Assembly (NCBI GenBank): GCA_022072445.1
Contig: JAJVHV010000030.1
Coordinates: 5,971-69,970, forward strand
DNA from: Phycisphaerae bacterium
Lineage (GTDB): Bacteria > Planctomycetota > Phycisphaerae > UBA1845 > Fen-1342
DNA length: 64,000 nucleotides
Direction of reading: 5' to 3'
Shown here: positions 51,179-64,000 of the stretch, piece by piece
Layout: every line of letters begins with the position of its first letter
Position numbering within the stretch: position 1 is the stretch's first letter
Program-made: the position numbers and the translations under genes
Notes under the pieces: generated by a model
Database searches by the model: none
What the model was told of the DNA's origin: nothing
Seen by the model: the letters and a program-made list of their open reading frames with translations, nothing else

Positions 51179-54100
51179 CTACCTCACACTGAAATACCGC
51201 GCCGCGGGATGATGCGCGATCACCGCGCTGGTGCTCTGCTCCGGATCAAGCTGGTATTCGTCGCTGAGCGAAACGCCGATGCGCTGCGGCTCGAGCAACT
51301 GCATGAGCTTGGCCTGGTCTTCCAGGTTCGGGCAGGCCGGGTAGCCGAAGCTGAAGCGGCTGCCCTGGTAGCCCTGCTGAAACAGCTTCTGCCGCTCGCG
51401 GGCGTCGTCGCCGGCGATCCCAAGCTCCATCCGCACCTGCTTGTGCACGTATTCGGCCAGCGCCTCGGCGGTCTCGACGCCCAGGCCGTGCAGGAAGAGG
51501 TATTGCTGATACTCGTTGCGGGCGAACCACTCGCGGGCCACCTCGCTGACGCGCTGGCCGGCGGTCACCAGCGAAAGGGCGATCACGTCGGTCTCCCCGC
51601 TCTCGACCGGTCGCCAGAAGTCGGACAGACACCAGTGCGGCGGCTTCTGCTGCCGCGGGAAGGTGAAGCGGGCCACTTCACAGCCACGTTGCGACGGAGA
51701 CAAGGGCGAGCGAGAAGGTAGCCCGAATGAGCCACGGAGGGAGGGAGCGGCTCGATCGCTGGACAGGCCCGGAGAAGCGAGCGCAATCGGAGTCGATCCC
51801 GGCGCAGACGCCATCGACTCCAGTCCTTCCTTCCCCTTCGTGCCTCCGTGGCTTCCTGGCTTCGTGGCGCCTTCTCCTTTCGTGGCTTCGTGGCTTCGTG
51901 GCTTCGTGGCTGTGTCCCAGATGATCAGATCGTCGCCGTCGGAGTTGCAGGGCCAGTAGCCGTAGATGGCCTGCGGCCGGAGGATCGCCTCGCGCTCGCA
52001 ACGCGCGACCAGCTCGCGGTAGATCGGCCGCACGTCGCGGTCGATGTAGCGGCGGAAGTCATCGCCGGCGCGGCCGCGCTTGCGGAAGCCCCACTGCACC
52101 TGGAAGAGCATGATCTCGTTCATGTAGCCCAGAGCGGCCTTGAGCGGGATGTGCTCGAGCACGCGCGCACCCCAGAAGGGCGGCGCGGGAATGGCGTTGT
52201 CGATCGGGATTTCGGAGCGGCGGCGCGGCGGCGCGGCGGCGCGGGCGCGGTCAATCGCGCTGGCCGCGACGAGCGGGCCCTCGGCGACGGCGTCGTCATC
52301 CTCGGCGGTCTCGCCGATGGCGGCGAGGCCGAAGCGCTGCTCGGCGTCGAGGTCGAGGCGGCGCGGGGGTTGGGCGGCGGAGATCGACGCTGCTTCCAGG
52401 TCCGGGCGGTCCTTGCGTCCGAAGGAAACCCCTCCCTTACGGTCGGGGCTCGGCTGGGTGGCGGCGCTCGGCTGGGTGATTTCTCGTTCTTCCAACGCTT
52501 CGTCGCGTTGTCGCTTTTCCCCTTGGTCGTTTCGTCGCTCTGTCGCTTCGTCGCGTCGCCCCGTCGTCGCTTCGTCGCTTCGTCGCTTCGTCGCTGTGAT
52601 CTCCCCCATCAGCCGCAGACCCTCGAACGCGTCCTTCGCGTATGAGAGGCTTCCGGCGTAGAGCGGGCGCAGGTCGTTCTCGACGTAGCCGCGCGTCAGC
52701 GCGGCGCCGCCGAGGATGACCGGCACGCGGATGCCCTGCTCCTCGAGCACGAGCAGATCGTCGCGCATCACCAGCGTCGACTTCACCAGCAGGCCCGACA
52801 GCCCGATCGCGTCGGCGGCGTGCTCGCGCCAGGCGGCGATGACGTTGTTGATCGGCTGCTTGATGCCCAGGTTGAACACGCGGTAGCCGTTGTTGGTCAG
52901 AATGATGTCGACCAGGTTCTTGCCGATGTCGTGCACGTCGCCGCGGACGGTCGCCAGCACGATCCTGCCGCGCGACGTGTCGGCGGAGCGGTCCATGTGC
53001 GGCTCAAGCAGGGCGACGGCGGCTTTCATCGTCTCGGCGGACTTGAGCACGAAGGGGAGCTGCATCTGGCCCGAGCCGAAGAGGTCGCCGACGGTCTTCA
53101 TGCCGTCGAGCAGCAGGTTGTTGATGATGTCGAGCGGCGCGTAGGTCTGGAGCGCGACGGCGAGGTCGGCGTCGAGGCCGATTCTCTCGCCGTCGATGAT
53201 GCGGCGTTTGAGGCGCTCCTCGATGGGCAGGTCGGCGATCTTGACTTTCGTGCCGACTTGTTCGGTATCGGAGAAGAGGCCGATAAACCGAACCAGCGGG
53301 TCCTCATGTGGCACAGCCGCCCCCGGCTGTGAATGTGGCACAGCCGCCCCCGGCAGTGGCTGTGGCTGTGCCACATCGTAGATCAAATTCAGCGCCGCCT
53401 CCCAGCGCTCGTCGCTGATCTGATTGCGCGGCAGGATCTTGCTCGAATGCACGATCGCCGCGGTCAGGCCGCGCTGCCGGGCCTCGTGCAGGAACACAGA
53501 ATTGAGGACCGCGCGGGCGGCGGGGACAAGGCCGAAGCTGACGTTGCTGACGCCCAGGATCGACTGGCAGCGCGGGAAGCGCGTCATCACCGCTTCGATG
53601 CCGTCGAGCGTCTCGAGCGCCAGCCGCCGATCGGCCTCGTTGCCGGTCGTGATCGGGAATGTCAGGCAATCGAAGAAGATGTCCTCTTCGGCGACGCCGT
53701 ACTTGCGCGTGAGCAGGTCGTGAATGCGCGTGGCGATTTCGAGCTTGCGCTGCGCGGTCTTGGCCATGCTCTCGATCGGGTCTTCGTCGATCGTGAGCGC
53801 GACGACGGCGGCGCCGTATTGCCGCAGCAGCCGCGCGACGCGGGCCATCTTGACTTCGCCGTCCTCGAGGTTGACGGAGTTGACGATGCACTTGCCGCCG
53901 ATGAGCTTCAGGCCGGCTTCGATCACCTCGGGCTCGGTGCTGTCGAGCATGATGGGGACGTTGACGTCGACGGCGTAGCGGTCGGCGACGCGCGTCATGT
54001 CGGCGACGCCGTCGCGCCCGACGTAGTCGACGCACAGGTCGAGGACGTGCGCGCCTTCCTTCACCTGCTCGACGCCCACCTGCACCAGGCCCTCGATGTC

Positions 54101-55363
54101 GCCTTCCGCGAGCAGGCGTTTGAACTGCCGGCTGCCGTTGGTGTTGCTGCGCTCGCCGACGATCAGAAAGCTGTTGTCCTGGCGGTAGGGCATGGCCTGG
54201 TAAAGGCTGCTGCACGCCGCCTCACGAGATCGGCTCGGCGATGGGCCTAATGCAGAATGAAGAATGCAGAATGCAGAAGCGTCCTCCGTCGTCGAGCCGG
54301 GCTCAGGTTTCGTCGCCGGTGCGGGCGGATGCTCGGCGGACCCAGAAAGGCCGATTGCAGAGGCATCCGGCGACGAAGAACCGGTTTCTGCATTCCGCGT
54401 TCTGCATTCTGCATTGCTTTCTGCATTGCCGTGGAATCCGATCGCCTCCACCACCGCGCGCAGATGCGCCGGCGTCGTGCCGCAGCAGCCGCCGACGATC
54501 CGCACGCCGTCAACGTCGACGAACTCCTTCAGCCAGCGGGCCAGCTCGGCCGGCGCGAGCGGGAAGTGCGTACGCCCGCTGACGAGCTGCGGCAGGCCGG
54601 CGTTCGGCATCACGCTGATCGGACGCGTGCTGTTCCGCGCCAGATACCGCACGTGCTCGCTCATCTCCTGCGGCCCGGTGGCGCAGTTCAACCCGATTAC
54701 GTCGACTTCCGGATACGCCTCGATCGCCACCAGCGCGGCGGCGACGTCGGTGCCCACCAGCATCGTGCCGGTGGTCTCCATGGTTACCTGCACCATGAGC
54801 GGCAAGCGCTTGCCGGTTTTCTCGAACGCCGACAGCACGGCCCAGATCACGGCCTTGGCGTGCAGGATGTCCTGACACGTCTCGATCAGCATCGCGTCGC
54901 AGCCGCCGTCGATCAGCCCGCGGGCCTGCTCGCCGTAGCTCTCGAGCAGCCCGTCGTACGAAATCTGCCGCAGCGTCGGCAGCTTCGTCCCCGGACCGAG
55001 CGAGCCGACGACGAAGCGCGGCCGCGGCAGCGTCGAAAACGCCTCGCACGCCCGCCGCGCGATCTTCGCCGCCGCGACGTTGATCTCGTAGCAGCGGTCA
55101 GCCAGGCCGAACTCGGCCAGCACGTGCCGCATGCCGCCGAAGGTGTTGGTTTCGACCGCGTCGCAGCCGACGTCGAGAAAGCTGCGGTGAATTTGCTCGA
55201 CGGCGTCGGGGCGGGTGAGGTTCAGGACTTCGCAGCAGTTTTCGAGGCCGTTGTAGTCGCTCAGCGGCAGATCGAGCGCGTGGATGCTGGTGCCCATGGC
55301 GCCGTCGAGAAACACCACGCGCCGCCCGACGAGTTCCAGAAACGCCGATTCCGATCCGCGCAA
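51179..55363 (-). CDS. metH: cobalamin-dependent methionine synthase with four repeat-derived in-frame insertions
   Basis: All modules are present: Hcy-binding (VVFLDGAMGT..GGCCGTTP), pterin-binding (FLIVGERSNTNGS), B12-binding (GDVHDIGKNLV), AdoMet activation (PACPNLEDQ). 1394 codons from a TTG start. Confidence 0.95.
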   Translation of the reverse strand: MRGSESAFLELVGRRVVFLDGAMGTSIHALDLPLSDYNGLENCCEVLNLTRPDAVEQIHRSFLDVGCDAVETNTFGGMRHVLAEFGLADRCYEINVAAAKIARRACEAFSTLPRPRFVVGSLGPGTKLPTLRQISYDGLLESYGEQARGLIDGGCDAMLIETCQDILHAKAVIWAVLSAFEKTGKRLPLMVQVTMETTGTMLVGTDVAAALVAIEAYPEVDVIGLNCATGPQEMSEHVRYLARNSTRPISVMPNAGLPQLVSGRTHFPLAPAELARWLKEFVDVDGVRIVGGCCGTTPAHLRAVVEAIGFHGNAESNAECRTRNAETGSSSPDASAIGLSGSAEHPPAPATKPEPGSTTEDASAFCILHSALGPSPSRSREAACSSLYQAMPYRQDNSFLIVGERSNTNGSRQFKRLLAEGDIEGLVQVGVEQVKEGAHVLDLCVDYVGRDGVADMTRVADRYAVDVNVPIMLDSTEPEVIEAGLKLIGGKCIVNSVNLEDGEVKMARVARLLRQYGAAVVALTIDEDPIESMAKTAQRKLEIATRIHDLLTRKYGVAEEDIFFDCLTFPITTGNEADRRLALETLDGIEAVMTRFPRCQSILGVSNVSFGLVPAARAVLNSVFLHEARQRGLTAAIVHSSKILPRNQISDERWEAALNLIYDVAQPQPLPGAAVPHSQPGAAVPHEDPLVRFIGLFSDTEQVGTKVKIADLPIEERLKRRIIDGERIGLDADLAVALQTYAPLDIINNLLLDGMKTVGDLFGSGQMQLPFVLKSAETMKAAVALLEPHMDRSADTSRGRIVLATVRGDVHDIGKNLVDIILTNNGYRVFNLGIKQPINNVIAAWREHAADAIGLSGLLVKSTLVMRDDLLVLEEQGIRVPVILGGAALTRGYVENDLRPLYAGSLSYAKDAFEGLRLMGEITATKRRSDEATTGRRDEATERRNDQGEKRQRDEALEEREITQPSAATQPSPDRKGGVSFGRKDRPDLEAASISAAQPPRRLDLDAEQRFGLAAIGETAEDDDAVAEGPLVAASAIDRARAAAPPRRRSEIPIDNAIPAPPFWGARVLEHIPLKAALGYMNEIMLFQVQWGFRKRGRAGDDFRRYIDRDVRPIYRELVARCEREAILRPQAIYGYWPCNSDGDDLIIWDTATKPRSHEATKGEGATKPGSHGGTKGKEGLESMASAPGSTPIALASPGLSSDRAAPSLRGSFGLPSRSPLSPSQRGCEVARFTFPRQQKPPHWCLSDFWRPVESGETDVIALSLVTAGQRVSEVAREWFARNEYQQYLFLHGLGVETAEALAEYVHKQVRMELGIAGDDARERQKLFQQGYQGSRFSFGYPACPNLEDQAKLMQLLEPQRIGVSLSDEYQLDPEQSTSAVIAHHPAARYFSVR
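51836..51914. repeat. octamer array (tggcttcg)n ending tggctgtg, inside metH
   Basis: The perfect array lies at 51883-51914, with degenerate copies from 51836. It encodes TATKPRSHEATKGEGATKPGSHGGTKG. Confidence 0.85.
52448..52598. repeat. gctcggctgggtg x2 plus octamer array (tcgcttcg)n ending tcgctgtg, inside metH
   Basis: The 13-mers lie at 52448-52460 and 52466-52478; the octamer array lies at 52567-52598. It encodes ATKRRSDEATTGRRDEATERR.. Confidence 0.85.
53306..53376. repeat. 27-nt tandem repeat with hairpin-forming core, inside metH
   Basis: atgtggcacagccgcccccggc(tgtga/agtgg) x2, followed by the inverted ctgtggctgtgccacat. The cacagccg/cggctgtg arms are self-complementary. It encodes PGAAVPH x2. 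Confidence 0.85.
54249..54430. repeat. ~180-bp composite palindromic element inside metH
   Basis: Outer arms are (gcagaat)n at 54251-54280 and (attctgc)n at 54386-54430. Inner arms are ggtttcgtcgccgg at 54306-54319 and ccggcgacgaagaacc at 54367-54382. Confidence 0.85.
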
Positions 55364-56671: not shown

Positions 56672-57079
56672 ATGGAAACGTCCCCCGGCATCCTGGGTCG
56701 ATTGTCCGAAAAAGTGCTCGGTTGGATCGCGCTGGGCCTGCTCGTCGCGCTGGGAATCGCCATCTGGCAGACCCCCGCCGACACCAAGCAGGCCATCTGG
56801 AGTGGCGTCTGGCGCGCCACGGCGTGGCTTGCGATCGTCGCGACGTTGCCCTGGGCCAGCCGCCTCTTCATGGGTCGCGTGCTGGAGCAATCGTCGAACT
56901 GGGCCGGGGTGGCGCTGGTCGCCGCTTACTGCCTGGCGGACGTGATCGCGGCGGTGTGCCTGATGACGGTCTGGCCGGCGAGCGGTTGGGCCTGGTTCCT
57001 GAGCGCCGTCGCGCTGGCCATCGCAGGGACGTATAATTATCTGGTTTGCGAGTATGTCGCGGAACAATCGGGCCTATGA
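56672..57079 (+). CDS. small integral membrane protein
   Basis: Four hydrophobic helices (WIALGLLVALGIAIW, WLAIVATLPW, GVALVAAYCLADVIAAVCLM, AWFLSAVALAIAG). Confidence 0.6.
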   Translation: METSPGILGRLSEKVLGWIALGLLVALGIAIWQTPADTKQAIWSGVWRATAWLAIVATLPWASRLFMGRVLEQSSNWAGVALVAAYCLADVIAAVCLMTVWPASGWAWFLSAVALAIAGTYNYLVCEYVAEQSGL

Positions 57080-57122
57080 AGCCGATCTGTGAACAATGCG
57101 GGCGGCTTTGCGGGGTCGAGCG

Positions 57123-58196
57123 ATGAGCACGAAATATCAGACCGGGCTGCGCGTCAGCGAATACGTACTGGAAGAATGCGTCGGCAGCGGCGCGTTCGCC
57201 GAGGTTTGGCGCGCCCGGCATCACATTTGGGAGTCCGAACAGGTCGCGGTGAAACTGCCGCTCCAGCCCGAATTCGCGCGCTATCTGCGGCGCGAGGGCG
57301 CGGTGGTCCACGGCGTGCGGCACGCCAACGTCGTGCGCGTCCTGGGGATCGACCCGTACGGCGAGATTCCGTATCTGGTCATGGAGCTGGTGCGCGGTCC
57401 GTCGCTCAAAAGCGTGATCGTCGAGCATCGCACCGGCGTGCCGGTCGACCTGGCGCTGCGCGTTTTCCGCGGCATCCTGACCGGGTTGGCGGCCGCGCAC
57501 GAAGCGAATGTGATTCACCGCGACATCAAGCCGGGCAACATCCTGCTCGATCTCAATGGCAAGCCGCTGTCGGAGCTGCGCAGCGAGCAGGTGAAGCTGG
57601 GCGACTTCGGCTTCGGGCTGGCCGACGTCGACGCCATGCAGTCGATCGCGCAGTCGGCGTCGATCAGCCGCTCCGACGCTCTGGTCGGAACGATCGCGTA
57701 CATGGCCCCGGAGCTGCGCGACGGGCACGCGGCAGCCGACGAGAAGTCCGACCTGTACGCCGTCGGGGTGGTGCTCTTTGAGCTGCTGACCGGCGAGCGG
57801 CCGGCCGGCGCCGAGCTGCCCAGCAGTGTCCGGCCGGCGATCAGCCCGGCGCTCGACGAGCTATTCAAGAAACTCTATGCGCGGCACGACCGCCGCTACG
57901 CCTCGGCCAACGCCGTGCTGCACGACCTGGACGCGCGGGTGCCCGCCCCCGACGGGGCGCCCGGCGCGCCGCACCTGCCGCCCTTGCCCGAGTCGGGCCG
58001 CCCGCGTTCGTCGCGGGCGAACTGGACGTGCGGCTCGTGCCATCGGCCGGCCGATCCGGCCGACCAGTTCTGCATCCACTGCGGGGCCCAACTGGTCGAG
58101 CGCGTGCGGCGTTGTCCGGGCTGCGATGGGTTTCCCGGCGTGGACGATCGATTCTGCATTTTTTGCGGCGCGTCGCTGCCGCCCGTGACCACGTGA
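57123..58196 (+). CDS. Ser/Thr protein kinase with C-terminal double Zn ribbon
   Basis: ORF 57096..58196. GSGAFAEVWRA..VAVKLP, HRDIKPGNILLD, DFG, GTIAYMAPE. C-terminus CGSC..CIHCG and CPGC..CIFCG. Confidence 0.9.
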   Translation: MSTKYQTGLRVSEYVLEECVGSGAFAEVWRARHHIWESEQVAVKLPLQPEFARYLRREGAVVHGVRHANVVRVLGIDPYGEIPYLVMELVRGPSLKSVIVEHRTGVPVDLALRVFRGILTGLAAAHEANVIHRDIKPGNILLDLNGKPLSELRSEQVKLGDFGFGLADVDAMQSIAQSASISRSDALVGTIAYMAPELRDGHAAADEKSDLYAVGVVLFELLTGERPAGAELPSSVRPAISPALDELFKKLYARHDRRYASANAVLHDLDARVPAPDGAPGAPHLPPLPESGRPRSSRANWTCGSCHRPADPADQFCIHCGAQLVERVRRCPGCDGFPGVDDRFCIFCGASLPPVTT

Positions 58197-58207: not shown

Positions 58208-58504
58208 ATGCACGGCCAAGGCGTCATTGTCCTCTGGGTTTTCGGCCTGCTGTTCGTCGGCGTCATCGGCATCGCCATGCTGGTGCTTGTCGCCGTTCTG
58301 CGCGCCGGCGGCAGGATTTTCCGGCACGTCGGTTTGGCCATGGGCGAGACCGGCGGCCGCGGGTCGGCCCCCTCGGGTGCCGCGGGCCGGCCGCGCTTCT
58401 GCACGCGGCGCGGCTGCCTGCATCCCAACCGCGGCGCGGCCCGCTTCTGCGCCCGCTGTGGTCAGGCGCTCGGCGGCGGGTACGATACGGAACTGTATGG
58501 ATGA
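58208..58504 (+). CDS. small TM protein with cytoplasmic Zn ribbon
   Basis: VIVLWVFGLLFVGVIGIAMLVLVAVL helix, then CTRRGCLHPNRGAARFCARCG. The 3' end overlaps the next gene by 8 nt. Confidence 0.6.
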   Translation: MHGQGVIVLWVFGLLFVGVIGIAMLVLVAVLRAGGRIFRHVGLAMGETGGRGSAPSGAAGRPRFCTRRGCLHPNRGAARFCARCGQALGGGYDTELYG

Positions 58505-59969
58505 GATCGCGCGACAGCGGCAGTTTGAGGAGCAGTTCCTCCAGCAGATCCGCGCCAAGGCCGCCGGCCTGACGCGCGGCACCCTGCCCGCCGACCGCGT
58601 CGTCGTCGAAAAGGTGCCCGACGGCATCGACGGCGTGCGGGCCACGCTGAGCCGCCTGGAGGTCTTCGATCACGAGCTGCTGCACCGCATGCCGGGCACG
58701 CAGGCCTGCCAGCTCAAGTTCACACGCTCGATGCTCGGCGGCCTGATGGAGCGGACCGTCTCGCGGCTGCGGGCCGTCGTGCTCGCGCCGGTCGCCGCGC
58801 TGGCCACCGGTCAGGCGCCCGGACCGGTGACCCGCGAGGACGTGCTCAACGCGCTGGCTCGCTACGACCTGATGCCGCGCGGCATGAGACCCACCGGCGT
58901 GGTCTTCGCCGCGCCCACCGGCTTCAGCGACAGCGCCCGCTCGCTGGTGAACGGGCCCGGTTCGCCTACGGTGATTCTGATGGGCGGCCGGGCCGACGGC
59001 GGCTGGGACGTGAGCATGTCCGATGCGGTCGCGAAGAGTCCCTGGGGCAAGCTCTTCGAGCTCGAAACGCAGGACGAGCTGGTCAAGCGCCTCGCGCATC
59101 ATCTCGACGAGTCCGCCGACCTCGTCGATTCTCGCGGACTGTCGATCGAGGAGCTGAGCGAGAAACTCGGCGTGGACCGCGACAAGACCGAGACCCTGGT
59201 GCGCAAACTGGCCCGCACCGACCCGCGCATCATGACCGTCGCCCACGACGGCCGAACGCACGTGTGCCGTACACCCTTCGCCGAGGAGGGCTCTTCCATG
59301 AGTCTCTGGAGCCGAGTTCGCAGACTGCTGCGGCTGAAGCCGACCGTCGCCGAGCAGGTGCGCGAGATGACCGCGCAGCGCGTCAAGCTGGAGCAGCAGC
59401 GCTTCGAGATCGACCGCGCGGTCAACAAGCTCCAGGACGAAGAGGTGCGCATCGTCAAGAGCGGGGCCGCCGCCACCACCGACGTCGAAAAACGCCAGCT
59501 TGCCAGCAAGCTCGTGCGCCTGCGGCGCGACCTGGGCCGGCAAAAGGCCCAGGCCGACGTGCTCACCAAACAGATCGACATCATCGGCACGCACCTGCAC
59601 CATCTGACGCTGGCCGAGCGCGGGCGCCGCATGGAACTGCCCAAGGCCGAGGAGCTGACGCGCGAGGCGGCCCAGGCCGAACAGGTCATGGCCGATCTCT
59701 CGGCCAACGCCGAACTGGCCGTGGGCATCGAAGTTGGCGGCGGGGCGCAGGCCGTGTCGGATGAGGAAGCGGCGATCCTCGAAGAATTCGCGGCGGCGGC
59801 GGGGACGACGCCGGTGAAGGAAACGCCCGCGGCGGCGCCGGCGGCGGGCGAATCGGGACGGGTGGCGGATGCCGGCCGGTCAGGCCCGGTCCGCGCACCC
59901 AGCGCAGCGCCGCCGGTGCCTGGTGCGGCGGCGTCGAAGCGTGAGTCGGCGAAGCCGGAGATGGGGTAG
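58497..59969 (+). CDS. fusion protein: unknown N-terminal domain + wHTH-like segment + C-terminal ESCRT-III/Snf7-like coiled coil
   Basis: ORF 58227..59969; start ATG 58497 (MDEIARQRQFEE). C-terminal half SLWSRVRRLLRLKPTVAEQVREMTAQRVKLEQQRFEIDRAVNKLQDEE..LVRLRRDLGRQKAQADVL is paralogous to 60721..61326. Confidence 0.65.
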   Translation: MDEIARQRQFEEQFLQQIRAKAAGLTRGTLPADRVVVEKVPDGIDGVRATLSRLEVFDHELLHRMPGTQACQLKFTRSMLGGLMERTVSRLRAVVLAPVAALATGQAPGPVTREDVLNALARYDLMPRGMRPTGVVFAAPTGFSDSARSLVNGPGSPTVILMGGRADGGWDVSMSDAVAKSPWGKLFELETQDELVKRLAHHLDESADLVDSRGLSIEELSEKLGVDRDKTETLVRKLARTDPRIMTVAHDGRTHVCRTPFAEEGSSMSLWSRVRRLLRLKPTVAEQVREMTAQRVKLEQQRFEIDRAVNKLQDEEVRIVKSGAAATTDVEKRQLASKLVRLRRDLGRQKAQADVLTKQIDIIGTHLHHLTLAERGRRMELPKAEELTREAAQAEQVMADLSANAELAVGIEVGGGAQAVSDEEAAILEEFAAAAGTTPVKETPAAAPAAGESGRVADAGRSGPVRAPSAAPPVPGAAASKRESAKPEMG

Positions 59970-59985: not shown

Positions 59986-60351
59986 ATGGACATGGCAAGT
60001 GCGCTGCCCACAGAGCTGCTGTTGCGTAAGCCCGTCGGCGAAGAAACTCTGCGTGAGCTTGTTCGCCGCATCGCCCAGCTTCGTAGCGACGCTTGCATCA
60101 TTCTGTTTGGGTCGCGGGCGCGCGGGGACGCACGGCCGGGGAGCGATCTTGATCTGATGGTTATCACGCAGGCGGATCGGAGTCCGCTGGCGATCGCGGG
60201 CGATCTCTACGCGGCACTGGCGGACCGTGATTTCGGGTTAGATATCGTCGTCATGCCGCGCGACCGCGTGCGGCGGGCACGAGACGGGTTCGATCCTTTT
60301 CTGAACGAGGTGCTCGCACAAGGCAGAGTCCTGCATGGCCGACTGCATTGA
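59986..60351 (+). CDS. minimal nucleotidyltransferase (MNT/MntA-type antitoxin), pair 1
   Basis: ORF 59869..60351; start ATG 59986. ILFGSRARGDARPGSDLDLMV (GSxxxGxxxxxSDxDL). Confidence 0.85.
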   Translation: MDMASALPTELLLRKPVGEETLRELVRRIAQLRSDACIILFGSRARGDARPGSDLDLMVITQADRSPLAIAGDLYAALADRDFGLDIVVMPRDRVRRARDGFDPFLNEVLAQGRVLHGRLH

Positions 60352-60724
60352 CTTTGAAGACTGGCTGGCCAAAGCGGAGGGAGATCGAGAAGGCGCCATG
60401 CTGCTGATGCGCGAATTCAGCAAATCTATCGCCGGCCTGATTGCCTTTTTGTGTCAGCAGTCGGTGGAGAAGTACCTCAAGGCGCTCCTGGTGCGTCAAC
60501 GAGTCTCTTTTCCTCGTACGCATGACCTGGCGGCGCTTGCGGCAGGCAGCTATCCGGACATCGCTCGAATTCAGCCATCGCTCGCGCGACTTCAGCCGTA
60601 TGCGGTTAATGTGCGATACCCTGGATTTGATCCGGAGCGCCCCGAATGCGAAGAGGCGATCGGCCATCTGGAACGAGTCCGGTCACATTGCCGCGAGCTG
60701 CTCGAATTGGGTGAGTGCGAATGA
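60335..60724 (+). CDS. HEPN-domain protein (HepT-type toxin), pair 1
   Basis: Overlaps the MNT gene by 17 nt. QQSVEKYLKALL..FPRTHDLAAL..AVNVRYP HEPN pattern. Confidence 0.85.
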   Translation: MADCIDFEDWLAKAEGDREGAMLLMREFSKSIAGLIAFLCQQSVEKYLKALLVRQRVSFPRTHDLAALAAGSYPDIARIQPSLARLQPYAVNVRYPGFDPERPECEEAIGHLERVRSHCRELLELGECE

Positions 60725-61326
60725 ACTTCTTCACCTGGCTGACGACCAAACGCAAGACGCTCGCGACGATGAGCGCCGCCGAGCTGCGCGCCCAGGAGAT
60801 GATGCTCGAGAACGAGCGCGACCGCATGCTGAAGCGCATGGAGAAGCTGGCCGGCGAGAAGCACCAGGTGATCGAGCGCGGCGCGAAGGAACGCACGCCC
60901 GAGCTGCGTAAGACCTACGCGCAGCAGTTCGACCTGCTGCACACCGAGCAGATGATGCTCAGCCGGCACCTGAACATCCGCAGCAAGGAGCTGCTGACCG
61001 TCTCGCGGCTGCGCATGCTGCGCGAGACGGCCCAGCGGGCCGGCACCGGCATGGGTGCGTTCGGCACGATTCGCGAAAAGGATCTGGCGGTGATCGAGGC
61101 CCTGATCGAGAACGACAAGGTCACCACCGACATGTACCAGGAGCGGCTCGACGCGATCCTGCAGATCGGCGCGGCGGCGGACGAGGAGGCGACCGGCCTT
61201 TCGGCGGCGGCGGGCGAGCTGCTCAAGGTCTGGAACGACATGGACGCCGGGCTGATCTCCAACACGGCCGAAGCGTTCGACGAGGCGGAGAAGCGGGTGC
61301 GTGAGAGAAACAGAGCAGCGGAGTAG
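60721..61326 (+). CDS. ESCRT-III/Snf7-like coiled-coil protein (paralogue 2)
   Basis: ORF 60715..61326. ATG 60721 forms an ATGA overlap with the HEPN stop. The ~200-aa helical protein has a basic N-terminus, long heptad hairpin pattern and acidic C-terminal part. The family call is by eye only. Confidence 0.55.
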   Translation: MNFFTWLTTKRKTLATMSAAELRAQEMMLENERDRMLKRMEKLAGEKHQVIERGAKERTPELRKTYAQQFDLLHTEQMMLSRHLNIRSKELLTVSRLRMLRETAQRAGTGMGAFGTIREKDLAVIEALIENDKVTTDMYQERLDAILQIGAAADEEATGLSAAAGELLKVWNDMDAGLISNTAEAFDEAEKRVRERNRAAE

Positions 61327-61332
61327 CCTCAT

Positions 61333-61701
61333 ATGCAACGACGCCCGAACCAGCGCGAAAACCGCGAGGCGCTCCGCGGCCCGATTGACAATCGCGTCAT
61401 TGGACAAATCGTAGACCGCTTGTCCAAGCGGTTGCCGGACTGCTGCATTGTGCTTTTCGGCTCCCGGGCCTACGGAACGCCGACCAGCCAGAGTGACGTT
61501 GATCTGCTGGTGGTGGCCCCGTCGCAACGTGACCCGTACGTGCTCTGCGGCGAACTACATCGCGAACTCAGTCCACGGGATTTCTCCGTTGATCTACTGG
61601 TCATGACGCCCGAGACTTTTCGTCAGCGCCGCTCACGGTTTGATCCGTTTTTTGCAGAACTCACCTCAAAGGGCCGCGTCCTGCATGGTCATCTCCCCTG
61701 A
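61333..61701 (+). CDS. minimal nucleotidyltransferase (MNT), pair 2
   Basis: VLFGSRAYGTPTSQSDVDLLVV. Paralogous to pair 1 through the C-terminal KGRVLHG. Confidence 0.85.
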   Translation: MQRRPNQRENREALRGPIDNRVIGQIVDRLSKRLPDCCIVLFGSRAYGTPTSQSDVDLLVVAPSQRDPYVLCGELHRELSPRDFSVDLLVMTPETFRQRRSRFDPFFAELTSKGRVLHGHLP

Positions 61702-62071
61702 TGCGGCGGAATGGGTCGATCGCGCCGAAGGGGACGTGCGCGCGCTTCGGAAGCTCGACCCAGTCGAGGATCGTGTCGTCGTGGCGTTTCTCGCTCAGCA
61801 GGCCGCGGAGAAGTACCTGAAGGCCACTCTGGTCAACAGCCGGATATGCTTTCCAAAACCACACGACTTGGTCGCGCTCGTCTCCCTGTGTCGGCAGATC
61901 AGTGATGAATTCGAGTCGTTGGTGGGCGCTGCCGCCGTGTTGCAGCCCTTTGCGGTGGACGTGCGATATCCCGGACCCGCCCCCGGAGAGGCCGCCGTGC
62001 GGGCGGCGATTGAGAATATGGACGTGATCCGAACCTTTTGCCGCGAGAGGCTTGCGCTGCAAGCGCCCTGA
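61685..62071 (+). CDS. HEPN-domain protein, pair 2
   Basis: ORF 61640..62071; start ATG 61685 gives a 17-nt overlap with the MNT gene. QQAAEKYLKATL..FPKPHDLVAL..AVDVRYP. Confidence 0.85.
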   Translation: MVISPDAAEWVDRAEGDVRALRKLDPVEDRVVVAFLAQQAAEKYLKATLVNSRICFPKPHDLVALVSLCRQISDEFESLVGAAAVLQPFAVDVRYPGPAPGEAAVRAAIENMDVIRTFCRERLALQAP

Positions 62072-62095
62072 ACGGCGATCACGCGGAGATGTACG

Positions 62096-62713
62096 ATGGC
62101 CCTATTCAAGTCAAAAGAAGAGCGCCGCATCGAGCAGGACATCAAGATCCGCCAGGGCATCCGCCGGATCGAGAAGTCCATCAGCGAGCAGAGCAAGTTC
62201 ACCGACGAGTTCGTGAAGAACGCCCGGCATGCGAAACAGATCGGCGACAACGGGCAGTATGTCTTCATCCGCAACTCGCTCAAGAAGACCGCCACCATCA
62301 AGAAGCTGCTCGAACGGCAGCTTCTGAGCGTCAAAAACGCGCTGCTGATCAAACGCCAGGCCGAGGCCTCGGCCGATTTCGCCAACGCCATGAGCCTGAT
62401 GGCCCGCGAAGTGGGCAAGCTCTACGGCGACACCGATCTCGTGAAGACGCAGACCGACTGGGAGAAGGCGCTGCTGCAGAGCCAGACGATGGAGGAGCGC
62501 ATGCAGATGTTCCTCGATTCGATCGAAAGCGGCGCCGCGGCCGACATCGCCGCCTCGCCGACGGCCGCCGAAGCGATCAGCGACGACGAGATCGACCGCA
62601 TGATCGCGGTTGAGGAGCAGGTGGAGAAGGCGAAGGAGACGCAGCAGATGTCGGCGCTGCGGGCGGAGCTGGCGGAGCTGAAGGGGGAGAGTAAGGATAA
62701 GGAGACGAAGTGA
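62096..62713 (+). CDS. ESCRT-III/Snf7-like coiled-coil protein (paralogue 3)
   Basis: GGAG 8 nt upstream of the ATG. MALFKSKEERRIEQDIKIRQGIRRIEKSI.., FANAMSLMAREVGKL, acidic ISDDEIDRMIAVEE, terminal amphipathic helix LRAELAELK. By eye it aligns along its length with CHMP2/Vps2-type proteins. Confidence 0.6.
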   Translation: MALFKSKEERRIEQDIKIRQGIRRIEKSISEQSKFTDEFVKNARHAKQIGDNGQYVFIRNSLKKTATIKKLLERQLLSVKNALLIKRQAEASADFANAMSLMAREVGKLYGDTDLVKTQTDWEKALLQSQTMEERMQMFLDSIESGAAADIAASPTAAEAISDDEIDRMIAVEEQVEKAKETQQMSALRAELAELKGESKDKETK

Positions 62714-62850: not shown

Positions 62851-63549
62851 GTGAGAGCATTGCCGATTAAGCCGCAGAAGTGGTTAGAGATGCTTGCTGA
62901 GGACTTGGTGCGCGACATCACGTCCAACCACTCGTTGCGCAGGTACACGACAAACGCGGATCTGCTTGGGGCGTGGGCTGAAGCGTGCGTACGAAACCTG
63001 ATTGCTCGCATGGTTCATCCGCTGCGAGTCTCACGCGGTGCGATCGTTTACGAAGGCATTTGCCCGGACGAAGTCCCAGAGCTGGATGCCATCGTGTGGA
63101 CCGCCGCACCCGTGCCGGCGGTCTTCGATCTTGGCGACTTTGCAATAGTACCGCGCGGCTCGGCCGTTGCTTTTCTTGAAGTCAAGCGAAGCGCGTACAC
63201 CGGCGTAAGCGACCGGATGCGCAAGACGCTCAACGGTACTGAGTGTCTCATCACACATTGCGAGCAAGAAAAGGGAACGCGCTTGGACGGAGAGGCTCTG
63301 GGTGTCGTCTGCATGAAGAGAGAGGACCAGAAACTCGACCGCACACTCCAAAGGCTCATGGACGACCAGAAGGCTGTTCTGCTCCTTGAGGAGAAGAATG
63401 GGTCCTGGAGGGCCATGGCGAGGGACGTACTTCGGCTTGTGAACTTTCTCGCGGCGGTGCGGGTCCGTGCGTTCGTCCTTGCATCCCAGCTCGGCGTAAA
63501 CACCGAGATTCTGGCTCCGGTACTAGGTAGCGACGGGACAGCGTCATGA
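62851..63549 (+). CDS. PD-(D/E)xK nuclease-fold-like protein of unknown function
   Basis: GTG start (alternative ATG 62890). VPELDAIVW ... AVAFLEVKRS gives a D...E-x-K arrangement. The stop forms an ATGA overlap with the MNT pair 3 start. Confidence 0.5.
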   Translation: MRALPIKPQKWLEMLAEDLVRDITSNHSLRRYTTNADLLGAWAEACVRNLIARMVHPLRVSRGAIVYEGICPDEVPELDAIVWTAAPVPAVFDLGDFAIVPRGSAVAFLEVKRSAYTGVSDRMRKTLNGTECLITHCEQEKGTRLDGEALGVVCMKREDQKLDRTLQRLMDDQKAVLLLEEKNGSWRAMARDVLRLVNFLAAVRVRAFVLASQLGVNTEILAPVLGSDGTAS

Positions 63550-63887
63550 TCGGTATCTGCACGCCCGTTCGAGTCACCGACGAACGGATCGCCGAAGTCG
63601 TGCGCCGCCTGGTCGAGGCGTTGCATCCGCAGCGCATCTACCTCTTCGGCTCGCATGCCTACGGAACGCCTCACGCGGACAGCGACGTCGACCTCCTTGT
63701 GCTGGTTGATGACGCCGAGCTGACGCAGGACGATCATGACCAGCGCGGCTATCGCTCTCTGCGCGGGATGTTTCTACCCATCGAGCTGCACATTCGAGGT
63801 CGGCAGGCGTTCGAACGGCGCGCGGTCGCTCCTCACAGTTTCGAGAACGAGATCCTGCGAAAGGGCAAGCTGCTCTATGCCGCGTGA
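63546..63887 (+). CDS. minimal nucleotidyltransferase (MNT), pair 3
   Basis: YLFGSHAYGTPHADSDVDLLVLV. Confidence 0.85.
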   Translation: MIGICTPVRVTDERIAEVVRRLVEALHPQRIYLFGSHAYGTPHADSDVDLLVLVDDAELTQDDHDQRGYRSLRGMFLPIELHIRGRQAFERRAVAPHSFENEILRKGKLLYAA

Positions 63888-64000
63888 TCCCGCTCTCATA
63901 CGCGAGTGGCTGCAGAAGGCCCGAAACGACCTCGAGACCGCGCGGCGCGCGATGGCCGAGAAGCCCATTCTCGATACCGGGTGCTTTCATTGCCAGCAGG
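63877..64000 (+). CDS. HEPN-domain protein, pair 3 (5' part, truncated by the window end)
   Basis: ATG 63877 lies inside the MNT 3' end. MPRDPALIREWLQKARNDLETARRAM matches the N-termini of HEPN 1 and 2 (..DWLAKAEGD.., ..EWVDRAEGD..). Confidence 0.7.
   Translation, partial: MPRDPALIREWLQKARNDLETARRAMAEKPILDTGCFHCQQ

What the first reader, a model, noticed from the sequence alone, without database searches (positions are those of the whole stretch)
60721..62713. Stand-alone ESCRT-III/Snf7-like proteins in a bacterium
Two ~200-aa all-helical proteins (60721-61326 and 62096-62713) show ESCRT-III hallmarks. These include a short basic N-terminus (MALFKSKEERR / MNFFTWLTTKRK), a long heptad-patterned helical hairpin and an A-x-A-M-type segment (FANAMSLMAREVGKL). 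They also have an acidic C-terminal region (ISDDEIDRMIAVEE). In paralogue 3 a terminal amphipathic helix LRAELAELK resembles the MIM1 pattern LxxRLxxL(K/R) of CHMP proteins. By eye paralogue 3 tracks CHMP2/Vps2 more closely than PspA/Vipp1, the only ESCRT-III superfamily branch established in bacteria. With the fusion protein upstream there are three paralogues in 4.2 kb. No Vps4-like AAA ATPase is present in the window.
Basis: inference. Interest (0 to 1): 0.8.

Follow-up and report, generated by a model that had tools for sequence, protein, structure and literature searches.

The report
Bacterial ESCRT-III operon with AAA ATPase
A planctomycete that has no FtsZ encodes a true Snf7/CHMP-type ESCRT-III protein, with two divergent look-alikes, in a conserved operon with a Vps4/Cdc48-like ATPase that lies just past the window end. 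This kind of membrane-cutting machine was thought to be limited to archaea and eukaryotes, and it is a candidate for how these bacteria divide.

Summary
Both ORFs are real, strongly conserved genes of a Phycisphaerae (Planctomycetota) genome.

**P3 (62096-62713)** belongs to the Snf7/CHMP branch of ESCRT-III, not to PspA/Vipp1.
- A diverse family profile hits CHMP2A, CHMP3 and Snf7 in register. It hits no PspA or Vipp1.
- 22 of 51 relatives match Pfam Snf7.
- The eight best Foldseek matches of the model are all ESCRT-III.

**P2 (60721-61326)** and the C-terminal domain of the upstream 490-aa protein are paralogues of each other. Their link to ESCRT-III is only suggestive.

**"Stand-alone, no Vps4" is a window-edge artefact.** A single-cassette AAA ATPase starts 305 nt past the window end. 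It scores about equally with CdvC and with the Cdc48 D2 domain.

**Conserved order:** membrane protein, Ser/Thr kinase, zinc-ribbon protein, 490-aa fusion, P2, P3, AAA ATPase, beta-propeller protein. Distant planctomycetes keep the core. The three MNT-HEPN pairs in this genome are inserted cassettes.

**Reading:** an ATP-driven ESCRT-III-like membrane-remodelling system. A role in FtsZ-free division is plausible but untested. I found no description of it in the searchable literature.

The parts
56672..57079 (+). 135-aa polytopic membrane protein, first conserved gene of the cluster
   Evidence: The sequence has hydrophobic segments. The gene is found upstream in most related loci. It has no Pfam family.
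57096..58196 (+). Eukaryote-type Ser/Thr protein kinase with a C-terminal double zinc ribbon
   Evidence: Pkinase E 7e-37 and DZR. HRDIKPGN, DFG and APE motifs are present in the sequence. Conserved upstream in 63 of 68 loci.
58208..58504 (+). 98-aa protein with an N-terminal transmembrane helix and a C-terminal zinc ribbon
   Evidence: Sequence. Weak DZR hit. Called as a gene and partly conserved.
58497..59969 (+). 490-aa fusion protein. The N-terminal ~265-aa domain is of unknown fold with weak HTH hits. The C-terminal domain (about 59290-59850) is a paralogue of P2 and a candidate divergent ESCRT-III module.
   Evidence: The gene call starts at MDEIARQ. hhalign of the C-terminus against the P2 family gives probability 85%, E 6e-6, in register. 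Against the P3 family it gives E 3e-3. Snf7 hits are faint, E 0.1-0.3, in 4 of 35 orthologues. In locus L090 the two halves are separate genes.
59992..60724 (+). MNT (nucleotidyltransferase) plus HEPN toxin-antitoxin pair 1. An inserted cassette, not part of the conserved system.
   Evidence: NTP_transf_2 2.6e-10 and HEPN 2.8e-19. Absent at this position in most related loci; in RAS1 P2 and P3 are 5 nt apart.
60721..61326 (+). P2: 201-aa helical protein with an amphipathic N-terminal helix, a long hairpin and an acidic C-terminal half. A candidate divergent ESCRT-III-like subunit.
   Evidence: Conserved family. AlphaFold model H3-16, H19-56, H60-106 plus short helices. The merged P2/fusion profile against the P3 family gives E 2.7e-4, probability 42%, in register. 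No direct Snf7 or PDB ESCRT-III hit.
61333..62071 (+). MNT plus HEPN toxin-antitoxin pair 2, an inserted cassette
   Evidence: Pfam hits. 39-42% identical to pair 1. Position varies between genomes.
62096..62713 (+). P3: 205-aa Snf7/CHMP-family ESCRT-III protein
62890..63549 (+). 219-aa protein of unknown function, a strain-specific insertion
   Evidence: No homologue in the other 80 loci. No Pfam or PADLOC hit.
63546..64000 (+). MNT plus HEPN pair 3; the HEPN gene runs off the window end. The AAA ATPase gene follows at window-equivalent 64305-65447, then the ~590-aa beta-propeller protein.
   Evidence: Identity of L001 with the window.

Best explanation
The finding is the middle of a conserved Planctomycetota operon. 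That operon most likely encodes an ESCRT-III-like polymer and the AAA ATPase that remodels it.

Shown:
- P3 is a genuine Snf7/CHMP-family ESCRT-III protein.
- P2 and the C-terminal domain of the upstream 490-aa protein are paralogues of each other. They share P3's size, helical-hairpin topology and basic-N/acidic-C charge layout.
- The gene cluster is conserved across Phycisphaerae species.

Inferred mechanism:
- P2 and the fusion C-terminus are divergent ESCRT-III-like subunits.
- The subunits bind the cytoplasmic membrane through their basic hairpins and N-terminal amphipathic or basic tips, and co-polymerise.
- The AAA ATPase has a single cassette, intact Walker A and B motifs, arginine fingers, a KWVG pore loop and a small three-helix N-terminal domain. 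It engages the conserved C-terminal helices and extracts subunits. This drives turnover and constriction, as Vps4/CdvC does in archaea and eukaryotes.
- The Ser/Thr kinase, the two small membrane or zinc-ribbon proteins and the beta-propeller protein recruit or regulate the polymer.

Planctomycetes lack FtsZ, and Phycisphaerae still divide by binary fission. Cytokinesis is therefore the most attractive role for this system. Membrane repair or vesicle formation is equally compatible with the data.
For: P3 as ESCRT-III:
- PDB profile hits are in register. 14 of the 20 listed are ESCRT-III (CHMP2A, CHMP3, Snf7, CdvB, CdvB2, CHMP1B) and none is PspA or Vipp1.
- 22 of 51 relatives match Pfam Snf7, and PF03357 is precomputed on 13 relatives.
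- Charge asymmetry is as expected.

The ATPase:
- It has AAA, AAA_lid_3 and Vps4_C (29.1 bits against a cut-off of 21.3).
- The NCBIfam CdvC model scores 240 bits over residues 91-377, almost its full length.
- Catalytic motifs are intact in the sequence.

Linkage:
- The AAA gene follows P3 in 46 of 60 species-level loci, with a median gap of 769 nt. P2 is upstream in 64 of 68 loci. The fusion and the kinase are each upstream in 63 of 68.
- Distant relatives at 27-38% identity also sit beside AAA ATPases and kinases.
- Locus L090 has the order N-domain, fusion-C-like, P2-like, Snf7, AAA.

Paralogy: fusion C-terminus against P2 gives E 6e-6. The merged family against P3 gives E 2.7e-4.

Division hint: six distant family clusters fuse the P3-like domain to an FtsK/SpoIIIE ATPase.

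Literature: all planctomycetes lack ftsZ and the driver of division is unknown (PMC6952346, PMC12673574).
Against: - The window's own P3 gives no Pfam or NCBIfam hit as a single sequence. The assignment rests on profiles built from relatives. Those scores carry a heavy coiled-coil composition correction, and the Foldseek E-values are above 0.05.
- P2 and the fusion have no direct ESCRT-III hit.
- The ATPase is not demonstrably a Vps4 orthologue. It scores the same against CDC48 (242 bits) as against CdvC (240 bits). Its lid and C-terminus are closest to p97 D2.
- The N-terminal domain gives TPR-like hits. A MIT hit appears in only 1 of 28 orthologues, at E 0.039.
- 14 of the 60 loci lack the ATPase within the downstream sequence held, including strain RAS1.
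- No functional, localisation or essentiality data exist.
Confidence: 0.72

Rival explanations
1. The components are the same ESCRT-III-like proteins and ATPase, but the system does envelope-stress membrane repair or maintenance, or vesicle and invagination formation. Its role would be PspA-like or MVB-like, with no role in cytokinesis.
For: - Membrane repair is the proposed ancestral role of the superfamily. In prokaryotes that have both FtsZ and ESCRT-III, the latter is thought to act elsewhere (PMC7619361).
- The downstream protein has a weak SPFH/Band_7 signal. A true Band_7 gene lies in the distant locus L088. SPFH proteins partner with PspA (PMC10936438).
- Kinase regulation fits a stress response.
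Against: - Planctomycetes have no FtsZ, so the argument that FtsZ does the dividing does not apply (PMC12673574).
- Conservation is very high, 70-88% identity across species, and the multi-paralogue composition resembles Cdv.
- The FtsK fusions in the family point towards division or chromosome segregation.
Confidence: 0.35
2. P2 and the fusion C-terminus are generic coiled-coil adaptor proteins unrelated to ESCRT-III. Only P3 is an ESCRT-III protein.
For: - hhalign probabilities against P3 are only 6-42%.
Against: - The alignments are global and in register, and they improve as family diversity grows: E 6e-3 rises to 2.7e-4.
- Length, helix order, N-terminal amphipathic helix and charge asymmetry all match P3.
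- Adjacency to P3 and the ATPase holds even in distant lineages.
Confidence: 0.3
3. The cluster is an anti-phage defence or toxin-antitoxin island, made of an Iet-like AAA ATPase, a defence kinase and MNT-HEPN modules. The helical proteins would be accessory.
For: - The ATPase hits PADLOC IetA at 130 bits, and the kinase hits PD-T4-6 models.
- Three MNT-HEPN pairs are interleaved in this genome.
- A distant locus has an AAA gene, a 196-aa gene and an S8 protease in a row, which is Iet-like.
Against: - The PADLOC hits reflect generic AAA and kinase similarity. CdvC and CDC48 score about 240 bits.
- P2, P3, the fusion and the propeller protein hit no defence model.
- The MNT-HEPN pairs are variable insertions, absent or differently placed in other genomes.
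- The core is syntenic and highly conserved across at least 80 species-level genomes. This is unlike patchy defence islands.
Confidence: 0.04
4. P3 belongs to the bacterial PspA/Vipp1 branch, and the Snf7 resemblance is superficial.
For: PspA/Vipp1 is the common bacterial branch of the superfamily. One relative is named 'phage shock protein A' by JGI.
Against: - PspA_IM30 is not among the 25 most-matched Pfam families for the 51 members, whereas Snf7 ranks first with 22 members.
- No PspA or Vipp1 chain is among the PDB profile hits at E up to 10.
- Foldseek ranks Vipp1 22nd and PspA 44th, at probability 0.12-0.16, against 0.98-0.99 for CdvB and CHMP2A.
Confidence: 0.03

Closest known systems
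Archaeal Cdv system (CdvA, CdvB paralogues, CdvC) of Sulfolobales and Thaumarchaeota
   Same: - Several ESCRT-III paralogues are encoded next to a single-cassette AAA ATPase.
- P3's best structural matches include CdvB and CdvB2.
- The ATPase aligns over almost the whole CdvC model.
- The host lacks FtsZ.
   Different: - The host is bacterial.
- No CdvA homologue was seen.
- The ATPase scores far below the CdvC equivalog cut-off (240 against 650 bits), and its MIT domain is unproven.
- Extra conserved partners are present: a Ser/Thr kinase, zinc-ribbon and transmembrane proteins, and a beta-propeller protein.
- Two of the three subunits are very divergent.
Eukaryotic ESCRT-III (CHMP2A/Vps2, CHMP3/Vps24, Snf7/CHMP4) with Vps4
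   Same: - These are the best sequence-profile matches, aligned in register from the N-terminus: CHMP2A 5.5e-5, CHMP3 9e-4, Snf7 2e-3.
- The helix order matches.
- The core is basic and the tail acidic.
- A conserved C-terminal amphipathic helix sits where the MIM would be.
   Different: - There are no ESCRT-0, -I or -II genes.
- The MIM1 consensus is only partly met.
- The ATPase lid and C-terminus are closer to p97 D2 than to Vps4.
- Sequence identity is about 11-18%.
Bacterial PspA/Vipp1/LiaH (PF04012)
   Same: It belongs to the same ESCRT-III superfamily and fold class, has a bacterial host, and probably acts at the membrane.
   Different: - No profile or Pfam match to PspA_IM30 was listed.
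- PspA systems have no Vps4-type ATPase (PMC7619361).
- The partner genes differ: there is no PspBC, PspF or LiaIF.
Sporadic bacterial Snf7-clade proteins and Vps4-like AAA+ transfers described by Ravi et al. 2024 (PMC11237479)
   Same: That paper reports Snf7-clade proteins in bacteria, some in operons with AAA+ ATPases. It proposes ATP-dependent membrane remodelling.
   Different: - The reported cases are in Actinobacteria (an RND-transporter fusion), Deltaproteobacteria, Bacteroidetes and a candidate phylum.
- In the reported Vps4 transfers the snf7 gene is displaced.
- Planctomycetes are not mentioned.
- No phylum-wide, multi-paralogue, kinase-linked operon is described.

Membership tests
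ESCRT-III / Snf7 family (Pfam PF03357), tested on P3 | Significant sequence-profile match to Snf7/CHMP/CdvB proteins | tested here: met
   The family profile (alignment A3) hits CHMP2A at 5.5e-5, CHMP3 at 9e-4 and Snf7 at 2e-3, all in register. 22 of 51 relatives hit PF03357, best E 5.5e-5. PF03357 is precomputed on 13 of the 120 relatives listed. The window's P3 sequence on its own gives no hit.
ESCRT-III / Snf7 family (Pfam PF03357), tested on P3 | Alpha1-alpha2 helical hairpin followed by alpha3 to alpha5 within about 200-240 residues | tested here: met
ESCRT-III / Snf7 family (Pfam PF03357), tested on P3 | Basic N-terminal core and acidic C-terminal autoinhibitory region | tested here: met
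   Net charge is +10 for residues 1-105 and -11 for residues 106-205.
ESCRT-III / Snf7 family (Pfam PF03357), tested on P3 | C-terminal MIM motif that binds a MIT domain (MIM1: LxxRLxxL[KR]) | tested here: inconclusive
   The invariant C-terminal helix reads ..S-A-L-R-A-E-L-A-E-L-K-G. It matches L188, L192, L195 and K196, but has E191 where the consensus has R. Binding could not be modelled.
ESCRT-III / Snf7 family (Pfam PF03357), tested on P3 | Polymerisation on membranes and membrane remodelling | not testable with these tools
   This needs biochemistry or cryo-EM.
ESCRT-III superfamily, tested on P2 and the C-terminal domain of the 490-aa fusion | Detectable homology to an established ESCRT-III family | tested here: inconclusive
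PspA/Vipp1 (Pfam PF04012) | Profile match to PspA_IM30, PspA or Vipp1 | tested here: not met
   PspA_IM30 is not among the 25 most-matched Pfam families of the 51 members. No PspA or Vipp1 chain appears among the PDB hits at E up to 10. Foldseek probability is 0.12-0.16.
Vps4/CdvC ATPase, tested on the AAA gene just beyond the window | Single classical AAA cassette with a C-terminal Vps4_C helix | tested here: met
   AAA 1.5e-39, AAA_lid_3, and Vps4_C at 29.1 bits against a cut-off of 21.3. The same C-terminal segment aligns equally well to p97 D2, so this feature does not discriminate.
Vps4/CdvC ATPase, tested on the AAA gene just beyond the window | N-terminal MIT domain | tested here: inconclusive
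   A conserved ~70-residue N-terminal segment is followed by a Gly/Arg-rich linker; the three-helix reading is by eye. Pfam gives TPR-like hits, and MIT appears in only 1 of 28 orthologues at E 0.039. The profile found no MIT structure in PDB.
Vps4/CdvC ATPase, tested on the AAA gene just beyond the window | Orthology to CdvC or Vps4 rather than to Cdc48, PAN or FtsH | tested here: not met
   NCBIfam scores: CdvC equivalog 240 bits (cut-off 650), CDC48 242, PAN 229, FtsH 205. No phylogeny could be run.
ESCRT-III plus Vps4 system (gene-neighbourhood definition used for archaea) | One or more Snf7 genes co-located with the AAA ATPase gene | tested here: met
   46 of 60 species-level loci have the ATPase after P3, with a median gap of 769 nt. 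The same holds in distant relatives.

The most novel reading that the evidence does not exclude
This operon is the missing FtsZ-independent cytokinesis machine of Planctomycetota. It would be a bacterial counterpart of the archaeal Cdv system. A composite ESCRT-III-like polymer (fusion protein, P2, P3) would assemble at mid-cell under kinase control. A Vps4/Cdc48-like ATPase would constrict or resolve it. FtsK-fused relatives would couple the polymer to chromosome clearance.
Probability: 0.25. Interest if true: 0.95.

Novelty: new variant of a known kind. Interest (0 to 1): 0.85.

Why it matters
[quoted passage not shown] A Snf7-family protein with an adjacent CdvC/Cdc48-like ATPase, vertically conserved in at least 80 sampled species-level planctomycete genomes, would revise that picture. 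It also bears on when ATP-driven ESCRT-III remodelling arose.
- **It suggests new regulatory links.** The attached kinase, zinc-ribbon proteins, beta-propeller protein and FtsK fusions point to regulation not seen in other ESCRT-III systems.

Tried and rejected
- **Single-sequence scans.** Pfam and NCBIfam scans of P2 and P3 gave nothing. BLASTP among the three proteins gave nothing.
- **Shallow profiles.** Profiles from close orthologues (Neff about 1.4) gave no PDB hit. Only the diverse set from the representative search worked.
- **P2 and fusion profiles.** Against PDB and Pfam these returned only designed coiled coils.
- **MIT domain.** Pfam and a PDB profile search for a MIT domain in the ATPase were inconclusive.
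- **Vps4 versus Cdc48.** I tried to separate them using the lid and C-terminal segment. It sided with p97 D2.
- **Defence-system reading.** Rejected after the PADLOC scan and the synteny analysis.
- **MNT-HEPN pairs.** Rejected as system components because their position varies between genomes. They share no flanking repeats and are only 29-42% identical to each other.
- **Tool limits.** The afdb50 fold library was unavailable. The genome scan with the most diverse alignment failed and was rerun with a narrower one.
Full report
**1. Observation**

The window is high-GC DNA (about 0.66). The exact P3 protein is recorded in NCBI under a Phycisphaerae bacterium MAG. Both ORFs exist as described:
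- P2 is 60721-61326, 201 aa. Homologues start at MNFF, which confirms the ATG at 60721.
- P3 is 62096-62713, 205 aa.

All quoted motifs are present. Both are real genes. P3 has 1848 database relatives and P2 has 453. The 120 best of each are mostly 70-88% identical, and those that carry a taxon name come from Phycisphaerae or Planctomycetota MAGs. AlphaFold models are all-helical:
- P3: H7-49, H52-110, H115-153, H163-197, pLDDT 70.7.
- P2: H3-16, H19-56, H60-106 plus four short helices, pLDDT 75.8.

Each protein has a basic N-terminal half and an acidic C-terminal half: +10/-11 for P3 and +7/-9 for P2.

**2. What P3 is**

The P3 sequence alone hits no Pfam or NCBIfam family. A profile of close orthologues hits nothing in PDB. 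An exhaustive HMM search of 1.84 billion cluster representatives found 331 clusters at E up to 1e-3. A 51-member alignment of full-length relatives, with mean column identity 32% (alignment A3), gave the following results.
- **PDB sequences.** CHMP2A scored E 5.5e-5, with query 13-148 aligned to residues 10-145. CHMP3 scored 9e-4, Snf7 2e-3, and CdvB, CdvB2 and CHMP1B scored more weakly. ESCRT-III chains make up 14 of the 20 listed hits. No PspA or Vipp1 chain appears.
- **Pfam.** 22 of 51 members match PF03357 Snf7, best E 5.5e-5. Snf7 is by far the most frequent family.
- **Precomputed annotation.** A second search with only the distant members listed 13 proteins already carrying PF03357. 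Their named sources are Planctomycetota MAGs.
- **Foldseek on the P3 model.** S. islandicus CdvB (probability 0.98) and CHMP2A (0.99) rank first. The top eight are all ESCRT-III. Vipp1 ranks 22nd and PspA 44th, at probability 0.12-0.16.

I conclude that P3 is a Snf7/CHMP-branch ESCRT-III protein. Two caveats apply. The HMMER scores carry a large composition correction, and the Foldseek E-values are above 0.05. The weight of the evidence therefore lies in how specific and how well aligned the hits are.

**3. P2 and the fusion protein**

- The fusion's C-terminal ~225 residues are a paralogue of P2. hhalign gives probability 85% and E 6e-6. The alignment runs in register from an N-terminal amphipathic helix.
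- Each family aligns globally and in register with the P3 family, but weakly, at E 3e-3 and 6e-3.
- I then added distant members recovered from other lineages and merged the two families. The match to the P3 family improved to E 2.7e-4, probability 42%, over 114 columns.

In the distant locus L090 the order is a 259-aa N-domain protein, a 214-aa fusion-C-like protein, a 202-aa P2-like protein, a 201-aa Snf7 protein, then the AAA ATPase. This shows that the 490-aa protein is a true fusion and that the three-subunit arrangement is old. I rate P2 and the fusion C-terminus as probable, but unproven, divergent ESCRT-III-like subunits.

**4. The proteins are not stand-alone**

A 10.4-kb contig matches the window exactly over 7552 nt. 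After a third MNT-HEPN pair it continues into a 380-aa AAA ATPase at window-equivalent 64305-65447.
- **Domains.** It has one AAA cassette (1.5e-39), AAA_lid_3 and Vps4_C at 29.1 bits against a cut-off of 21.3.
- **Motifs.** Walker A (GPPGTGKT), Walker B (IIFIDEVE), arginine fingers (RPGR) and an SKWVGE pore loop are all intact.
- **N-terminus.** A conserved ~70-residue domain, which reads by eye as three helices, is followed by a Gly/Arg-rich linker.
- **Family scores.** NCBIfam ranks CDC48 (242 bits) and the CdvC equivalog (240 bits, nearly full length) equally, ahead of PAN (229) and FtsH (205).
- **Discrimination attempts.** The lid and C-terminus are closest to p97 D2. The N-terminal domain gives TPR-like hits, with MIT in only 1 of 28 orthologues.

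It is therefore Vps4-like in architecture, but orthology to Vps4 is not established.

**5. Conservation of the cluster**

A scan of one genome per GTDB species found 329 genomes encoding a P3 relative. Of the 80 best, nearly all carry Phycisphaerae, Planctomycetota or 'Planctomycetales' titles. tblastn across these loci gives the following.
- The conserved order is: 135-aa membrane protein, Ser/Thr kinase with zinc ribbon, small transmembrane/zinc-ribbon protein, 490-aa fusion, P2, P3, AAA ATPase, ~590-aa protein.
- The ATPase follows P3 on the same strand in 46 of the 60 loci with at least 5 kb of downstream sequence. The median gap is 769 nt.
- P2 is upstream in 64 of 68 loci. The fusion and the kinase are each upstream in 63 of 68.
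- The ~590-aa protein has a C-terminal WD40-type beta-propeller (E 6e-23). It has a weak N-terminal SPFH/Band_7 signal (E 0.011).

Distant P3 relatives, at 27-38% identity, also lie beside AAA ATPases and kinases. The MNT-HEPN pairs and the 219-aa gene in this window are insertions. In strain RAS1, P2 and P3 are 5 nt apart. Other genomes carry different small cassettes in different gaps.

**6. Function**

Shown: family membership of P3, paralogy of P2 and the fusion C-terminus, intact catalytic motifs in the ATPase and the kinase, and operon conservation.

Inferred:
- The subunits co-polymerise on the cytoplasmic membrane.
- The ATPase turns the polymer over through the conserved C-terminal helices.
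- The kinase, zinc-ribbon proteins and propeller protein regulate or recruit it.

The P3 C-terminal helix (SALRAELAELKG) is invariant in the sampled Phycisphaerae orthologues. It matches four of the five MIM1 positions.

Two observations make cytokinesis an attractive role. First, all planctomycetes lack ftsZ, Phycisphaerae divide by binary fission, and the driver is unknown (PMC6952346, PMC12673574). Second, six distant family clusters fuse the P3-like domain to an FtsK/SpoIIIE ATPase, and one fuses it to RuvB plus NERD. Membrane repair or vesicle biogenesis remains equally compatible with the data.

A defence-island reading is unlikely. Only generic AAA and kinase similarities to PADLOC models were found. 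The core is syntenic and highly conserved across species.

**7. Comparison with what is known, and novelty**

The closest systems are archaeal Cdv and eukaryotic ESCRT-III/Vps4. PspA/Vipp1 is excluded for P3. [quoted passage not shown] Ravi et al. 2024 (PMC11237479) did note sporadic bacterial Snf7-clade proteins, some AAA+ associations, and Vps4-like transfers in which snf7 is displaced. They do not mention planctomycetes or this operon. Nine full-text searches, on ESCRT, Snf7, Vps4 or CdvB combined with Planctomycetes, Planctomycetota or Phycisphaerae, and on Phycisphaera division, found no description of it. I classify it as a new variant of a known kind. Only open-access literature was searched.

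**8. Verdict**

It is correct and strengthened for P3, tentative for P2 and the fusion, and wrong about the proteins being stand-alone.
- Interest is high. The finding contradicts a current generalisation and makes the question of FtsZ-less division directly testable.

Noticed in passing
window 59992-60724, 61333-62071, 63546-64000: Three divergent MNT (nucleotidyltransferase) plus HEPN toxin-antitoxin pairs occupy successive intergenic gaps of the operon. They are 29-42% identical to each other and have no flanking repeats. Related genomes carry MNT-HEPN or other small cassettes in different gaps of the same operon, so these gaps look like a hotspot for small selfish modules.
   Followed up: partly
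window 62890-63549: A 219-aa ORF with no Pfam or PADLOC hit and no homologue in the 80 related loci. It appears to be a strain-specific insertion between P3 and the third MNT-HEPN pair.
   Followed up: partly
proteins P0349, P0358, P0362, P0366, P0373, P0381, P0390; locus L087:1338-2873: Distant members of the P3 (Snf7-like) family carry the ESCRT-III-like domain at the N-terminus of an FtsK/SpoIIIE ATPase (six clusters). One carries it on a RuvB plus NERD protein. In L087 the fusion gene is followed by a second stand-alone P3-like gene.
   Followed up: partly
L012:13899-15668 and orthologues (downstream of the AAA ATPase, beyond the window): A conserved ~590-aa protein with a C-terminal WD40-type beta-propeller (E 6e-23 against PDB) and a weak N-terminal SPFH/Band_7 signal. 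A true 625-aa Band_7 gene sits in the distant locus L088. SPFH proteins are known partners of PspA and of some archaeal ESCRT loci.
   Followed up: partly
L090:7941-11699: In a distant planctomycete the 490-aa fusion is split into separate N-domain (259 aa) and ESCRT-III-like (214 aa) genes. A P2-like gene, a Snf7 gene and the AAA ATPase follow. The fusion's N-domain profile also matches an S8 peptidase (L091:15951-18629, E 5e-7).
   Followed up: partly
L012:9411-9884: A 157-aa ORF lies in the P2-P3 gap of another Phycisphaerae genome. By eye it resembles the four-helix-bundle '23S rRNA intervening sequence protein' type and is flanked by short repetitive coding-like sequence. This may explain why many genomes have a P2-P3 gap of 550-650 nt.
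   Followed up: no
L088:1-2414: A distant P3-family locus (assembly GCA_964438515.1) lies next to a 1035-aa protein with a hydrazine-synthase-alpha (HZS_alpha) Pfam domain. This might indicate an anammox-type planctomycete, another lineage that divides by fission without FtsZ. Taxonomy was not checked.
   Followed up: no
window 51179-55363 (- strand): A very long methionine synthase (MetH-like) ORF of 1394 aa, read by eye only. It contains several low-complexity, Pro/Ala/Ser- or charge-rich inserts between recognisable domains.
   Followed up: no
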